Assembly (NCBI GenBank): GCA_943704415.1
Contig: CALSCO010001722.1
Span: 1 to 42,676 of the forward strand
Direction of reading: 5' to 3'
Length of the DNA stretch: 42,676 nucleotides
Source: Parvularia atlantis
Taxonomy: Eukaryota
Position 1 is the stretch's first letter. Each line of letters starts with the position of its first letter. This document shows, one piece after another, positions 8,401 through 23,400 of this stretch. Below the pieces are notes generated by a model. It made no database searches, was not told the DNA's origin, and saw only the letters and a list, made by a program, of their open reading frames with translations. The translations under genes and the position numbers were made by a program.

Positions 8401-11400
8401 CGTTGACGCGTACCAGGTGCGGTGCGTGCGGCGCCTCGTTTCGTGCGGCTCATGTGCGCGTGCGCTTGCCGCAGCTCGCCGACGGCCTGCAGTACACGTT
8501 TGCGCACGTGGGCCAGCTCACGGGCATGTATCGCTACAAGTACAAGCTGATGAAGCAGGTGCGGCGGCACCGCTGGCGCGGACGGCTGTCCTGACGGCGC
8601 GCGTGTGCAGGTGCGCATGACCAAGGACCTCAAGCACCTGATCTACTACCGCTTCAACTGCTTCCCGACGGACCACCAGATCCTGACCGAGCACGGCTTC
8701 TACTCGCTGGCGCAAGTGCGCGCGCACTTTGAAACGCACGCCGAGCTGCGCGTCGCCTGCTACGTCGGCAGCCGGCTAGAGTACCGCCCGATCACCGAGC
8801 GCGACGTGACCGTGGCCGAGGGCCAGCACCGCCTGATCGCGATGGAGGACACGGGCAAGCGCGGCAACCAGCTGTCGCTCACGCCAACCGACAACCACCG
8901 CATGTTTGTGCGCATGGGCCCGACCATCCCGACGCCCAATCGTCATTTCTACCCTGCCAAGGCGAACGAGCCCTTCTGCATCGAGACCGCGTCCGACGTC
9001 TACAAGCTCGGCCAGACGGACCCGTCGGCTGTCGCCCAGTTCCAGAGCCTCTGCGCCGACGGTGTGCAGCCGTTGTCGGACGACCTGCCGTTTGTGCAGG
9101 AGCTGGGCCTGCGCTCGAGCGCCGAGATCAACGCGTTCCTGCAGCTCTACGGCTACTGGCTCGGCGACGGCTGGCTCGACATGCGCAGCAAGGCGATTTG
9201 CTTCAGCCCCAAGAAGGTCGCGGACTGGGACTACCTTGATGAACTCCTGCGCGTCCTGCAGGGCGTGCTGCCCTACGGCTCGGCGGCGTCCGTGGACCCC
9301 CGTCCTGCGACCGTGCGCGGCAGAGGCGGCGACGTCGACGTCAAGTCACGCAACTACAAGATCGTCGACGCGCGCTGGTGGGCGTGCTTCTCCCGCGAGT
9401 ACGCCATCAAGTACAGCATGAAGCGCAAAGTCTTCAAGTCATCGGAGCGCATCTTCGCCAGCCAGACGCTCGATCGGCATCTGAGGCGCGCGCGGCCCGA
9501 GGACACGCCTGCGAGCGAAAAACCGGCTACCGAGGGTGTGCTGGCCGCGAGCTTGTTACCTGAGAACGTCAAGCCGGGCAAGTGGCTGTGGCCGTGGGCG
9601 CTGCAGTCCCTCGACAAGGACCAGGCTCGGCTCCTGCTCGAGGGCCTGCGTTGCGCCGACGGTGACCAAGCTGCGCGTCGCAAGAGTGGCGGCCGCATCG
9701 GCACATCGTCGGTCCGCTTCCGCGACGAGCTTGTGCGCCTGTGCCTGCATGCCGGCTACAGCGTCACGTTTGACCTTCAAGCGGCGAAAGGCAAGGTGAA
9801 CGGCGTGAACGCCCTCGGCGTTCCGATCATCGCGTCCACGAACCACTACTACGTGCGCTACAGCGATGACCGTCTGGCCGAGCCCAAGCTGACGATCAGC
9901 ACCGACTTCACGGAGCAGCCGTACCAGGGCACGGTCTGGTGCGTCAGCGTGCCCACGGCCGAGCAGCTCATCGTCGTCCGGCGCGTGCTCGAGAGCGAGG
10001 GCGACGTCATCACCAAGGCGTCGCGCCCGGTCGTCGTTGGCAACACGGGCCCGGTCGGCAAGGGCCCCGGCGTGGGCTTCTGGGCGCCCGGGTGGCGCGT
10101 CTGGCTGTTCTTCCTGCGCGGCATTGTGCCGCTTCTGGAGCGCTGGCTGGGTGCGTTCTCTCGCGCGCGGCGCCTCGCATGTGCCGCTGCTGACTAAGGG
10201 CATACAGGCAACCTGCTCGCGCGCCACTTTGAGGGCCGTGCCTCGCGCAGCTCGGCCAAGACCGTGTCCAAGCAGCGCGTCGAGTCGCACTACGACCTCG
10301 AGCTGCGCGCCGCGGTCATGCACGACATCCTCGACATGATGCCCGAGGGCATCAAGGCCAACAAGGCCCGCACGATCCTGCAGCACCTGAGCGAGGTGCG
10401 TTGCGCAGCCGCGCCGCGGCCGAGTGGCGCCCCTGCTCACACCACGACTCGCTCGCAGGCCTGGCGCTGCTTCGGCCGCGGCACGCCCGTGCTGATGCAG
10501 GGCGGCGAGGCCAAGGCGATCGAGGACGTGCGCGTGGGCGACCGCGTCATGGGCGACGACGGCAGCGTGCGAACGGTGGTCGCGGCGCGCAGCGGCCACA
10601 CCGAGCGCATGTACCGCGTCCGCGCGCTCCCGCACAAGACCGAGGCGGCCGCGGCGCACGGACTGTGGCGTGAGGAGGACTTCACGTGCAACTCGCAGCA
10701 CGTCCTCGTTCTGACGGTCGCCAACGCCGCCACGCTCGTCGCGGACAAGTCGGGCCAGTACCGCGTGGCTTTCTACGAGATCGAGCACAACGCCGACCTC
10801 GGCTTCAGCGCCCCGACGCTTCACAGCCGCACGTTCAGTGGCAAGCGCTGCACCGCGCACGGCAGCGACGACAGCTTCAAGAAAAGCTCGCAGGCGCGCG
10901 AGACTGCCGAGGCCTTCCGTGCCCAGCAGGCGCAGCGCCAGCTGCTGTGGGAGGTGTCGGTCGACAACTTCCTGGCGTTCCAGCGCAAGCAACCCGACGT
11001 GGCCGCCCGCTGCCGCATGATGCGCGCTGCCGTCGGCAATGTCGTCGTTCCAACGTCCGGCCCCGCGCTCGACCTTGACAAGTTGCTCGCGTCGGTCTAC
11101 ACGTCGGCCAGCGCAGCGCACGAGCGTCTCACCGTCGACGAGCTGCTCTACGTCGTCGGCATGTGGCTCGCGAGCGCGGCGGGCAGTGCGCCCAGCGTGC
11201 TCGCCACCGTGCTGCAGCGCCTCGGCCTGTGTGGCAGCAAGCACGTCGCGCCGCAGCTGCTGTCGGGCCTCGTGGGCCAGACGGAGGAGCGGCGTCTCGC
11301 GCTTCTCAGCGGCCTGCTCGCATCGGACGCCGGTCGCCGCACGGGCGACGACAGCTTCGAGTTTGAGCAGGACCTGACGGTCGAGCACAGCGACACAGTC

Positions 11401-20400: not shown

Positions 20401-23400
20401 TGGGCCACACTCATCTCAGACGTCGACGGCCGTTCGTACTGTACCTACGCAAGCGAGTGCGCTTTCTCGAGCGAGAAGCGAGGCACCGTCATGCGTCACA
20501 TCCGCGAGGTGCACGAGCATGCGACTGGCTCAAACTTCACGCACAACGTGTCTTTCTGCGTCACCGGCAAGCACAACATGCTGTACTCGCTGAACGATCC
20601 TCGTCATGGCAGCAAGCCCGCCAAGGTCAACCCCGCATGCGATCTTCTTGACGTGGACCGGCACCGTTCGATCCGCTTTGTCGCTCGTGCACAAGACGGA
20701 TGCCAGCCCGAGGACGACATCGCCAACGACGTCGCTTTCCTTCGCACGCTGCCGCACTTCGACCACCAGCAAGACGCCAACCCGACCTCACGCGAGCAGC
20801 GGCTGCACGACTTCCTTTGGCTGATGGGCTTTTGGCTGGGTGATGGTACCGTGAACCCGACACGATGCGCTTTCGGGCAGATGAAGGCGACCGGTCGGTC
20901 GGAGCTCGAGAGCCGCCTGCGCGCACTCGGATACGAAGAAGACGCGGACTGGACCAAGGACAATCAAGAGTACCGACTCATCGGCGAGGCCAAGCGCCGG
21001 TGGTGCGCCTTCCTGTGGCCAGAGTACGAGTGTCACTACCAAGAGCTACGCGAGGCCAAGTCTCTGCGCCAGACTGCGAAAGCATCGAACCTGAACGGTC
21101 GGCCGGTTGAGTCGGTCGTGAGCTCGACCAAGTGGGCCATGACTTGGATGCTACGTCGTCTCAGTGCCAAAGCAAGTCGCTCGCTTCTCGACGGTCTGCG
21201 CGTCGCAGACGGTGACTACAGCAGCAAGGGCGCATTCTTCACGTCCAGCACGCGATTCCGTGACGAGATTGCCCAGATCGGCATCAACGCTGGCTTCAGC
21301 GTCAGCTTCGCTGTGAACGAGGACCGGGGCGCGGTCAAAGAGCGCCACAACGTCAACTGGCGCGTTTCCCTGTCCGAGAAGAAGTCCACCGCCATCGTGC
21401 CGCGTACCGACATCAAGACGACTCTGCACACGGGCAACGTCTGGTGCCTGACTGTGCCGCCGCACCACATCATCCTCGTGCGCCGTATGGTCAAGACCGT
21501 GTGCCCAGACAGCAAGCGTCCCGTTACTGTGCCGAGCCGTCCGATCTGGATGGGCAACTCGCACGACATTGAGCGCTACACGCGCGCCAAGTTCCTCGAC
21601 TACGTGCGTGCTGCTGCGTGTGCGGTGCGGTGCGGCGCTGACCCGCGCCACCGCCGCCGCCCACCAGACGACCGACAACATGCCAATGTACCCGTCGCCC
21701 ACGGGCGTGATGGTCGGCATCGACCTGGCGTACAACCTGCACAGGTGCGCTCCTTTGCTCTGGCGCACAGCACCACGGCTCACGCCGCCGCGGGGGCACG
21801 CCGCAAACAGCGCCTACGGCAACTACTTCCCCGGGCTCAAGCCGTTGATGCAGCAGGCGATGGCCAAGGTGCGTCGCGCGTCAGCGCGTTGCAGCCCACT
21901 GAGCGTGCGCCACGCCCCAGATCATGAAGGCCAACCCGGCGCTGTACGTGCTGCGCGAGCGCGTGCGCAAGGCGCTGCAGCTCTACAGGTGCGCACGCGC
22001 GTTGTGTTGTTGAGCGGGCGCTGATCGCCGTCTGTCGCGCACAGCTCCGAGCCGACCGAGCCGTACCTGTCGTCGTCCAACTACGGTGCGCTGCGGGTGC
22101 GCCCTCTGTCGTCGCGGTGCTCATGCGAGCGCGTCGTGCAGGCGAGCTGTTCTCCAACCAGACGATCTGGTTCGTCGACGACACGAACGTGTACCGCGTC
22201 ACGATCCACAAGACGTTCGAGGGTGCGCTGGGGGCGCCGCTGGCGCGCGCGTCAGTGCACCTGACGTCATGTCACGCACGTGTGCGCGTGCAGGCAACCT
22301 GGTGACCAAGCCGATCAACGGCGCGAGTACGTCGACCGCGCTCGCGTGCGGAGCTGGCCGTGTGCTGACGCGTCGTTGCGCGTGCGCCCGCGCAGTCTTC
22401 ATCTTCAACCCGCGCACGGGCCAGCTGTTCCTCAAGATCATCCACACGAGCGTGTGGGCAGGCCAGAAGCGCCTGGGCCAGCTGGCCAAGTGGAAGACGG
22501 CCGAGGAGGTGGCAGCGCTGATTCGCTCCCTGCCCGTGGAGGAGCAACCCAAGGTGCGTCGCGTGTGCGCAGGTCGGCTGGTGAGCACAGCGCGCTGACG
22601 GCGGCTCGTGCGCGCAGCAAATCATCGTGTCGCGCAAGGGCATGCTGGACCCGCTCGAAGTGCACCTGCTCGGTGCGCGGCGGATGCACATGCGCCGTGT
22701 GTGGTGCTGACACGCGCCGCCGCCACCAGACTTCCCCAACATCACAATCAAGGGCTCGGAGCTGCAGCTGCCGTTCCAGGCGGCGCTCAAGATCGAGAAG
22801 TTTGGCGACCTGATCCTGAAGGCGACGGAGCCGCAGGTGCGCGGCCGCGGTGAAAACGATGCGTGCGGTGCGGAGGTCTCACGCACACGCGCAGATGTGC
22901 CTGTTCAACCTGTACGACAACTGGATGCAGAGGTGCGTGGTCGCGCTTGCGAGGGGAAGCGCCTGACGTGTGGGCGCGCACACGGCAGTATCTCGTCCTA
23001 CACGGCCTTCTCGCGCCTGATCCTGATCCTGCGCGCGCTGCACGTGAACAACGACAAGACGAAGGTCATCCTGCGGCCAGATAAGACGACGATCACGCAG
23101 GAGCACCATATCTGGCCGACGCTGTCCGACGAGTGCGTGCTGGGCGCCTGCGCGGGCGTGGCTGCTGATGCGCGCGTGCACACAGAGACTGGATCAAGGT
23201 CGAAGTGGCGCTCAAGGACCTGATCCTGGCCGACTACGCCAAGAAGAACAACGTCAACACGGCGGCCCTGACCCAGTCCGAGATCCGCGACATCATCCTC
23301 GGCATGGAGATCTCGGCGCCGTCGCAGCAGCGGCAGCAGATCATCGAGATCGAGAAGCAGACGCGTGAGCAGTCGCAGCTGACGGCCGTGACGACCAAGA

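What the first reader, a model, noticed from the sequence alone, without database searches (positions are those of the whole stretch)
8659..21558. Six inteins in one nuclear PRP8 gene
Seen: six in-frame insertions start with Cys, end in HN or GN, and are followed by T/C/C/C/S/S. Removing each one exactly restores conserved PRP8 sequence (YRFN|TGP, AWR|CWK, PHE|CLS, VFY|CPK, EKS|SGF, DFD|SHD). They total 2851 aa, so the precursor would be about 5200 aa and more than half intein. Established: PRP8 inteins are known from fungi and some protists and algae, to my knowledge usually one per gene. The EK|SGFEE site is the classical one. Inference: six in one essential spliceosomal gene is extreme, some sites may be new, and making PRP8 would need about 50 RNA-splicing plus six protein-splicing events.
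Basis: partly seen in the sequence, partly recalled or inferred. Interest (0 to 1): 0.97.

Follow-up and report, generated by a model that had tools for sequence, protein, structure and literature searches.

The report
Six inteins crowd one spliceosome gene
A protist's essential spliceosome gene PRP8 carries six large inserts that stay in the spliced mRNA and likely cut themselves out of the protein (inteins), one more than the highest count found in print but matched by fungal database proteins, and its ordinary introns cluster beside known intein landing sites, likely as shields against or scars of intein invasion.

Summary
Confirmed. PRP8 (5456-24534, 51 introns) encodes a 5185-aa precursor with six in-frame inserts totalling 2851 aa. 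Spliced contigs of a second study keep all six while removing the GT-AG introns. All six have intein splicing blocks; three keep both LAGLIDADG acidic residues. The host falls in Holomycota outside Fungi. Six exceeds the published maximum I found (five, Anaeramoeba Prp8) but is no database record: predicted Dispira and Coemansia Prp8 proteins carry 6-8. Three sites are published (a, b, probably e); three (residues 617, 876, 1672) seem unpublished but are occupied in other database proteins; I counted 17 sites against 8 in print. The newer result: spliceosomal introns sit within 11 nt of 9 of 12 empty intein sites here and 10 of 17 in a relative's PRP8 that has one intein; 19 of 56 intron positions fall in 6.7% of the gene, against 2 of 26 in one animal control. 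This idea is published only case by case. The scan earlier noted single-site cases on other DNA. Protein splicing and homing are untested.

The parts
5456..24534 (+). PRP8 gene, 52 exons, 51 introns; precursor 5185 aa, extein 2334 aa
   Evidence: exon sums match RNA-like contig offsets
8659..10044 (+). Intein 1, after residue 617 (YRFN|TGP), 462 aa, ends GN; both LAGLIDADG motifs keep Asp; site apparently unpublished
   Evidence: no Pfam Hint hit; AlphaFold model pLDDT 82.5 matches PI-SceI, E 6.6e-11; same site in 6 database proteins
10468..11688 (+). Intein 2, after residue 718 (AWR|CWK; published site, b of Monier 2013), 407 aa; endonuclease motifs degenerate
   Evidence: Pfam Hom_end_hint E 4.9e-31; motifs; published flanks
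12280..13926 (+). Intein 3, after residue 876 (PHE|CLS), 549 aa; first LAGLIDADG motif has Asn for Asp, second intact; site apparently unpublished
   Evidence: Pfam Hom_end_hint, Hom_end, LAGLIDADG_3 above cut-off; 39-40% identical to Coemansia inteins at the same site; alignment
15827..17662 (+). Intein 4, after residue 1317 (VFY|CPK; probably published site e), 612 aa; both LAGLIDADG motifs keep Asp
   Evidence: Pfam Hom_end_hint, Hom_end, LAGLIDADG_3 above cut-off; site letter inferred by eye
18426..19373 (+). Intein 5, after residue 1506 (EKS|SGF; classical site a), 316 aa; first half of the endonuclease lost
   Evidence: Pfam Hom_end_hint E 8e-13; alignment; C-extein SGFEE of site-a entries
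20044..21558 (+). Intein 6, after residue 1672 (DFD|SHD), 505 aa, ends GN; both LAGLIDADG motifs keep Asp; site apparently unpublished
   Evidence: no Pfam Hint hit; own block profiles hit both ends; 54% identical to the insert at the same site in L001; low-confidence model (pLDDT 48) matches PI-SceI/I-DmoI only over the endonuclease part
20440..20517 (+). C2H2 zinc-finger-like insert between splicing blocks A and B of intein 6, shared with L001, absent from P0014 and P0144
   Evidence: Pfam zf-H2C2_5 E 0.0014, below cut-off; alignments
8262..8327 (+). Intron 8 nt before empty intein site 546
   Evidence: same position in L001
8559..8610 (+). Intron 9 nt before empty site 604
   Evidence: same position in L001
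10396..10458 (+). Intron 9 nt before occupied site 718
14156..14220 (+). Intron 6 nt after empty site 930
15739..15811 (+). Intron 15 nt before occupied site 1317
   Evidence: L001 has one at -11
17988..18044 (+). Intron 7 nt after empty site 1423
   Evidence: L001 has one at +1
18133..18210 (+). Intron 7 nt before empty site 1457
18355..18415 (+). Intron 10 nt before occupied site 1506
   Evidence: L001 has one at -8
19686..19746 (+). Intron 1 nt before empty site 1593
   Evidence: L001 has one at -6
19851..19909 (+). Intron 7 nt after empty site 1625
22223..22293 (+). Intron 11 nt before empty site 1799
22673..22729 (+). Intron 7 nt after empty site 1875
   Evidence: same position in L001

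Best explanation
The gene is transcribed, loses 51 introns and keeps six intein-coding inserts, so it is predicted to give a 5185-aa precursor from which six inteins likely excise themselves to yield a normal 2334-aa Prp8; the inteins likely arrived separately by endonuclease-driven homing, and the introns clustered beside empty intein sites likely record that same homing pressure. Shown: the anatomy, retention in spliced contigs, splicing-block residues (Cys1, block B His, terminal Asn, +1 Cys/Ser/Thr), the intein-endonuclease fold of intein 1, and the intron clustering. Inferred: cis-splicing by the standard four-step route; homing by LAGLIDADG cleavage of empty alleles and repair from the occupied allele; staggered arrival (intein 5 has host-like codon use and a truncated endonuclease, intein 6 the least host-like codon use and intact motifs). 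PRP8 collects inteins because it is essential, single-copy-like and conserved enough for endonucleases to find targets across species. Introns gained inside a 20-30-bp recognition site (length recalled) would split the target in DNA without changing the protein, and so would be favoured, or would arise there as break-repair products, or both.
For: Retention in spliced contigs. Pfam Hom_end_hint above cut-off for 4 of 6; profiles built from public Prp8 inteins hit N- and C-terminal blocks of 6 of 6 and nothing else in the window; fold of intein 1. Each of the six sites is occupied in other organisms' Prp8 (6, 18, 6, 17, 23 and 2 of 220 proteins). The six do not form one clade; inteins 1, 3, 5 and 6 group with same-site inteins. 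Fourfold-site GC: extein 0.95; inteins 5, 2, 1, 3, 4, 6 = 0.96, 0.90, 0.90, 0.86, 0.83, 0.73. Relative L001 (92% identical extein) has only the site-1672 intein. Intron within 11 nt at 9 of 12 empty sites here (background 16%, p 1e-5; 2 of 2289 circular shifts reach it) and 10 of 17 in L001 (background 9%, p 3e-7; 1 of 2069 shifts); 8 of 12 introns private to L001 lie in these zones; at four sites both genes have a nearby intron at different positions; animal control L002 2 of 26, Fisher p 0.009.
Against: No splicing or cleavage assay exists here. Inteins 1 and 6 lack the penultimate His and have no Pfam or NCBIfam intein hit. Three occupied sites (718, 1317, 1506) also have an intron 9-15 nt upstream, so an intron is no absolute barrier. 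The 11-nt radius was chosen after seeing the data; the excess holds at 8, 15, 20 and 30 nt, but at 6 nt the window alone shows none (2 of 12), and the contrast with the animal control is not significant at 6 or 8 nt. Only two protist genes (sharing 12 intron positions) and one control were tested. Near-site introns show no excess of boundary repeats (p 0.73). Inteins 2 and 4 do not group clearly with most same-site inteins. No empty allele of this species was seen among the joints listed (many rows not shown), so present-day homing is unshown.
Confidence: 0.72

Rival explanations
1. The inteins are as described, but the nearby introns are neutral by-products (break-repair scars or decayed inteins) and give no protection.
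For: Introns coexist with inteins at 3 of 6 occupied sites; Monier 2013 proposes intein-primed gain or decay; Aspergillus site-a inteins coexist with a C-terminal intron.
Against: Offsets peak at 6-11 nt on both sides, and only 3 of 19 near-site positions lie within 1 nt of the site, where a decayed intein would sit; no repeat signature.
Confidence: 0.3
2. The intron clustering has nothing to do with inteins: both elements favour the same kind of sequence, or the pattern is chance.
For: Radius chosen post hoc; one control gene; two related test genes.
Against: Background limited to conserved positions followed by Cys/Ser/Thr gives the same or smaller p; so does limiting to codons 530-1890; published and unpublished site sets each show it (9 of 56 and 10 of 56, p 4e-5 each); 0 of 4 positions shared with the animal gene lie in the zones.
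Confidence: 0.12
3. The host keeps the six inteins as regulators: conditional protein splicing gates Prp8 supply under stress, as proposed for the Cryptococcus Prp8 intein.
For: Metal-sensitive splicing of Cne Prp8 is reported (passages); intein 5 persists with a truncated endonuclease.
Against: A close relative lacks five of the six; site sets differ freely among Coemansia species; any intein must keep splicing whether useful or not.
Confidence: 0.1
4. The inserts are introns, or the locus is a chimeric or collapsed assembly.
For: Only short-read contigs were available; X1 may be the source sample; the library type of X2 is a guess.
Against: One contig of a second study carries inserts 1 (from its 13th base) to 6 in cis with introns removed and 0 differences; depth is flat; all inserts are in frame with intein termini.
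Confidence: 0.02

Closest known systems
Anaeramoeba ignava BMAN Prp8 with five inteins (Gallot-Lavallee 2023, PMC10710043)
   Same: Several non-allelic inteins in one nuclear Prp8, including site a and the AWR|CWK-type site; intragenomic spread; introns noted near empty sites in paralogues.
   Different: Five, not six; a metamonad, not a holomycotan; its fifth site (AKWK|TAEE) is empty here; the intron-site link is given as examples in the section I read, with no gene-wide test.
Capsaspora owczarzaki Prp8 with three inteins, sites b, e, f (Monier 2013, PMC3749507)
   Same: Unicellular opisthokont; shares site b and probably e; its intein F looks by eye like the family of intein 1.
   Different: Three inteins; F most likely sits at 1799 (inferred), not 617.
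Prp8 intein catalogue, sites a-g (Green 2019, PMC6805012; Green 2018, PMC5784728)
   Same: Cys1, block B His, terminal Asn; independent invasions grouped by site.
   Different: Seven sites (eight with Anaeramoeba) against 17 counted in 220 database proteins; 617, 876 and 1672 do not map to a-g as far as I could infer.
Predicted Prp8 proteins of Dispira simplex (P0139), D. parvispora (P0140), Coemansia sp. RSA 989 (P0134) and Coemansia sp. Benny D115 (P0136)
   Same: Six or more inteins in one Prp8 (7 whole plus the tail of an eighth; 6 plus part of a seventh; 6; 6); P0134 shares four sites with the window.
   Different: Fungi; other site sets; seen only as predicted proteins, with no DNA or RNA check; not found described in my searches.
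Intron at an intein site: Bathycoccus prp8 site d (Monier 2013) and Eupenicillium prp8 site a (Elleuche 2009, known to me only as cited in PMC10710043)
   Same: Spliceosomal intron at or beside an empty Prp8 intein site, proposed to block homing or to derive from the intein.
   Different: Single sites; here 15 of 18 sites have an intron within 11 nt in at least one of two genes, with a statistical test and a control.
PI-SceI (yeast VMA1 intein)
   Same: Top fold match of intein 1; Pfam Hom_end_hint family for inteins 2-5.
   Different: About 11% identity; activity is proven for PI-SceI, untested here.

Membership tests
Class 1 cis-splicing inteins | In-frame insert whose exact removal restores the host protein | tested here: met
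   6 of 6
Class 1 cis-splicing inteins | Retained in mature mRNA | tested here: met
   contigs of one run whose RNA status is the tool's guess but which skips the GT-AG introns
Class 1 cis-splicing inteins | Cys/Ser at 1, block B His, terminal Asn, +1 Cys/Ser/Thr | tested here: met
   sequence; T77 and H80 of intein 1 invariant in a 15-row alignment; penultimate His in 4 of 6, Gly in inteins 1 and 6
Class 1 cis-splicing inteins | Hint domain by profile or fold | tested here: met
   Pfam for inteins 2-5; fold for intein 1; for intein 6 only by homology (own profiles; BLAST to intein 1 E 1e-22), its model being too poor for the Hint part
Class 1 cis-splicing inteins | Self-excision and extein ligation | not testable with these tools
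   needs reporter or proteomics
LAGLIDADG homing inteins | Two LAGLIDADG motifs with catalytic acidic residues | tested here: inconclusive
   met for inteins 1, 4, 6; first motif Asp-to-Asn in 3; degenerate in 2; first half missing in 5
LAGLIDADG homing inteins | Cleavage of the empty allele and homing | not testable with these tools
   no empty same-species allele seen among listed joints
Published Prp8 intein sites a-g plus AKWK|TAEE | Insertion at a catalogued site | tested here: inconclusive
   met for intein 5 (a) and 2 (C-extein CWKAN; EAFR/CWKA); probable for 4 (e); apparently not met for 1, 3, 6, but e, f and g were placed by intein resemblance because the figures and datasets giving their positions could not be read

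The most novel reading that the evidence does not exclude
Intein homing endonucleases are a direct, repeated cause of spliceosomal intron gain: in this lineage PRP8 records a gene-wide arms race in which nearly every one of about 18 intein landing sites is either occupied or carries a separately gained intron inside the endonuclease target, so intron positions map past invasions.
Probability: 0.5. Interest if true: 0.87.

Novelty: new variant of a known kind. Interest (0 to 1): 0.68.

Why it matters
How and why spliceosomal introns are gained is a long-open question, and protection from homing has been proposed from single cases. Here one gene gives about 18 independent target sites, three endonucleases with intact motifs, and a close relative with matching empty, intron-marked alleles, so the idea can be tested by simple cleavage assays and by comparative genomics. 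The finding also raises the reported load of inteins per protein, with transcript support, roughly doubles the list of Prp8 sites, points to Kickxellomycotina fungi and early holomycotans as overlooked intein reservoirs, and exposes a widespread intein family (inteins 1 and 6) that the Pfam and NCBIfam intein models missed here.

Tried and rejected
Pfam and NCBIfam gave no intein hit for inteins 1 and 6. 'Scar' idea: the rewritten motif at 1457 and +1 Ser at empty sites 1423 and 1544 first looked like traces of lost inteins; rejected as weak because many control proteins show like enrichment, Ser occurs in 34 of 177 and 8 of 170 non-carriers, and L001 shares the 1457 motif and the 1544 Ser. 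Closeness of introns to the six occupied sites alone is not significant (3 of 6 within 15 nt, p 0.12). Boundary repeats and phase of near-site introns: no significant difference. Viral contig scans with intein 1 and with a Prp8 alignment found nothing; a viral link rests only on a Pandoravirus PolB hit (P0006) that does not group with intein 1. Alignment A2 misplaced the N-terminus of intein 6 and was dropped. The model of intein 6 is low-confidence. Runs X3 and X4 hold short identical pieces, but their intein-free junctions carry many differences and come from other organisms; no use made of habitat. The representative search gave 460 relatives of intein 6 but no further Prp8 site among the 144 new proteins checked. 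Site 1495 rests on one N-terminally damaged protein (P0014) and is doubtful; moving it to 1491 did not change the test. The protein search stops at 5000 aa, so precursors as long as this one were not searchable.
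Full report
Observation. A spliced alignment against a database Prp8 gave 50 introns; I corrected one acceptor and added the first intron by hand, which gave 52 exons, 51 GT-AG introns, one open frame of 5185 aa and a 2334-aa extein. The inserts follow extein residues 617, 718, 876, 1317, 1506 and 1672. For five of them the numbering equals human PRPF8; the +1 residues of inteins 2, 3, 4 and 6 correspond to yeast 792, 950, 1390 and 1745. None of the 51 introns lies in the 8553 insert bases (62 expected at extein density).

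Not introns, not an assembly artefact. Six runs were listed, four holding part of the stretch; I laid those four. X2, from a different study than X1, has a 13,725-nt contig that skips the GT-AG introns shown and carries insert 1 from its 13th base and inserts 2-6 whole, with 0 differences; 13 of 14 offsets match my exon sums. An 878-nt spliced contig bridges the start of insert 1. The tool only guesses that X2 is RNA, but intron removal shows it. X1 covers the gene at flat depth and may be the source sample.

They are inteins. Pfam Hom_end_hint passes its cut-off for inserts 2-5, and Hom_end plus LAGLIDADG_3 for 3 and 4; inserts 1 and 6 have no intein hit in Pfam or NCBIfam. Insert 1, folded with a 15-row alignment (pLDDT 82.5), matches PI-SceI (E 6.6e-11) and archaeal intein endonucleases. 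Insert 6 is 26% identical to insert 1 (E 1e-22); its own model is poor (pLDDT 48) and matches LAGLIDADG folds only. Profiles built from public Prp8 inteins hit both ends of all six and nothing else in the window. All have Cys1, a block B His, terminal Asn and a +1 nucleophile; 1 and 6 end in Gly-Asn. Endonuclease motifs are intact in 1, 4 and 6, partly changed in 3, degenerate in 2 and half lost in 5. GC at fourfold sites runs from host-like in intein 5 (0.96 against 0.95) to 0.73 in intein 6, which fits, but does not prove, staggered arrival. The six do not form a clade: 1 groups with another site-617 intein (82% bootstrap), 6 with site-1672 inteins (100), 3 with site-876 and 1457 inteins (0.99), 5 with Coemansia site-a inteins (0.95); 2 and 4 are unsettled. 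The family of inteins 1 and 6 also sits in DNA polymerases (one named Pandoravirus), RPB2, dynein, kinases and other hosts by precomputed Pfam labels, has 460 representatives at E 0.001, and has a second member in another spliced-library contig of the same organism.

Host. Extein trees place the window, L001 and two unnamed proteins (SH-aLRT 99) as sister to Paramicrosporidium plus Fungi, within a clade excluding animals (98.9). That is the position I recall for nucleariid amoebae; no named nucleariid or unicellular holozoan was in the tree, so this is an inference.

How unusual is six? In print: seven Prp8 sites (PMC6805012, passages), three inteins in Capsaspora Prp8 (PMC3749507, passages and sections 17-19), and five in Anaeramoeba ignava Prp8 against an earlier maximum of four per protein (PMC10710043, passages, section 9 and two supplements searched). 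Seven searches (listings only) showed no paper with more than five per protein or with Prp8 inteins in Coemansia or Dispira; subscription papers are largely missing. In databases: a search for Prp8 of 3521-5000 aa gave 23 hits among 805 candidates. Of 254 proteins retrieved by three searches, 220 were Prp8; 52 carry whole inteins: 20 with one, 6 two, 9 three, 6 four, 7 five, 3 six, 1 seven, at 17 distinct sites. Dispira simplex P0139 has seven plus the tail of an eighth; D. parvispora P0140 six plus part of a seventh; Coemansia P0134 and P0136 six each. These are predicted proteins that I could not check against DNA, and the set is enriched by my queries, so it gives no frequencies. Six is thus above the published maximum I found but not a record. 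None shares this six-site set.

Which sites are new? From supplement rows of PMC5784728 (files 1, 2, 4, passages) site a has C-extein SGFEE (1506), c has CLDFP (1875), and CWKAN (718) is catalogued; d lies 87 residues after a (1593). Letters differ between papers. I placed e at 1317, f at 1799 and g at 546 by eye from intein resemblance, with the statement that c-f lie in residues 770-2173. So inteins 5, 2 and probably 4 are at published sites, and 617, 876 and 1672 appear unpublished, though each is occupied in other database proteins (6, 6 and 2 of 220). The figure of Green 2019, Supplementary Figure 1 of Monier 2013, Dataset S1 and the appendix of Gallot-Lavallee 2023 and InBase could not be read and may change this.

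The intron pattern. A metagenome scan gave one locus, L001: a PRP8 92% identical in extein, with only the site-1672 intein (54% identical, same zinc-finger-like insert) and 24 introns over codons 244-2334, 12 at positions shared with the window. Taking the 17 sites plus the Anaeramoeba site, all defined without regard to these introns, an intron lies within 11 nt of 9 of 12 empty sites in the window (background 16.4%, p 1.2e-5; 2 of 2289 circular shifts) and 10 of 17 in L001 (8.7%, p 2.7e-7; 1 of 2069). Counting introns, 19 of 56 distinct positions lie in zones covering 6.7% (p 1.7e-9): 8 of 12 private to L001, 8 of 32 private to the window, 3 of 12 shared. Fifteen of 18 sites have such an intron in at least one gene; the exceptions are the doubtful 1495, the Anaeramoeba site, and 1672, which is occupied in both. 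At 1317, 1423, 1506 and 1593 both genes have an intron within 15 nt at different positions, which suggests parallel gain or sliding. A control, an intein-free animal PRP8 found in a prokaryote assembly (L002), has 2 of 26 (expected 1.7; Fisher p 0.009). Against: the radius was chosen after the fact (the excess holds at 8-30 nt, is weak at 6 nt; the contrast with the control is not significant at 6 and 8 nt); there is one control; the two test genes are related; three occupied sites also have an adjacent intron; no break-repair repeats are seen. The idea itself is published case by case (PMC1508164 passages; Elleuche 2009 not read); I found no gene-wide test.

Mechanism. Most likely the inteins are selfish elements that homed in one by one and splice out in cis, and new introns inside their targets were either selected as shields or produced by repair of endonuclease cuts. 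Splicing, cleavage and selection are inferred. I put about 0.95 on six genuine inteins, about 0.85 on a real intron-site link, and about 0.72 on the whole account. A regulatory role is not needed: the close relative lacks five of the six.

Verdict. Real, a new variant of a known kind. The count alone is a modest step past the literature; the expanded site list and the gene-wide intron clustering make it worth follow-up. Interest 0.68.

Noticed in passing
window 8670-8700 and 9131-9180 (X1 contig of 2593 nt; X2 contig of 2836 nt): Another gene of the same organism carries an intein of the intein-1 family: 31 identical bases at the start and 46 of 50 at the first endonuclease motif, with a different flank (reads GVDIN|CFPV); it breaks both assemblies at this spot and hints at spread within the genome.
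   Followed up: partly
window 10514-10547 (X2 loose ends): A further contig in the spliced library matches the start of intein 2 and continues with intein-like block A sequence, so more inteins are probably expressed in this organism.
   Followed up: no
P0124-P0142 (Coemansia, Dispira) and P0123 (Tieghemiomyces): Kickxellomycotina Prp8 proteins carry 3-8 inteins in varying site sets; no paper on this found in my searches.
   Followed up: partly
P0001-P0047: The family of inteins 1 and 6 occurs in many unrelated host proteins, often after Asn or His, and escaped Pfam and NCBIfam intein models for both window members.
   Followed up: partly
window 18211-18250; L001 4470-4510: The usually invariant Prp8 motif after PFWW is rewritten at five or more residues in both the window and L001, a lineage mark that coincides with intein site 1457.
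   Followed up: partly
L001 4862-4874: A 13-nt micro-exon holds the empty intein site 1544, with introns 4 nt before and 9 nt after it.
   Followed up: yes
L002 (whole locus): A 482-kb contig filed as a bacterial metagenome-assembled genome holds an animal PRP8 gene with 30 introns, so that assembly is contaminated.
   Followed up: partly
window 348-821, 3241-3822, 27934-28252, 29898-30300, 31775-32200, 33534-34139, 34614-35000, 37987-38679: Neighbours are ordinary housekeeping genes: RPL31, Paf1, RPL35A, a protein kinase, a JAB/MPN protein, a ubiquitin-conjugating-type protein, a WLM-like protein (below cut-off) and Dcc1; 9 of 15 pieces scanned had a Pfam hit; none carries intein blocks.
   Followed up: partly
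window 5689-6060: The second PRP8 intron is 372 nt, against a median of 61 nt for the gene; not examined for an embedded RNA.
   Followed up: no
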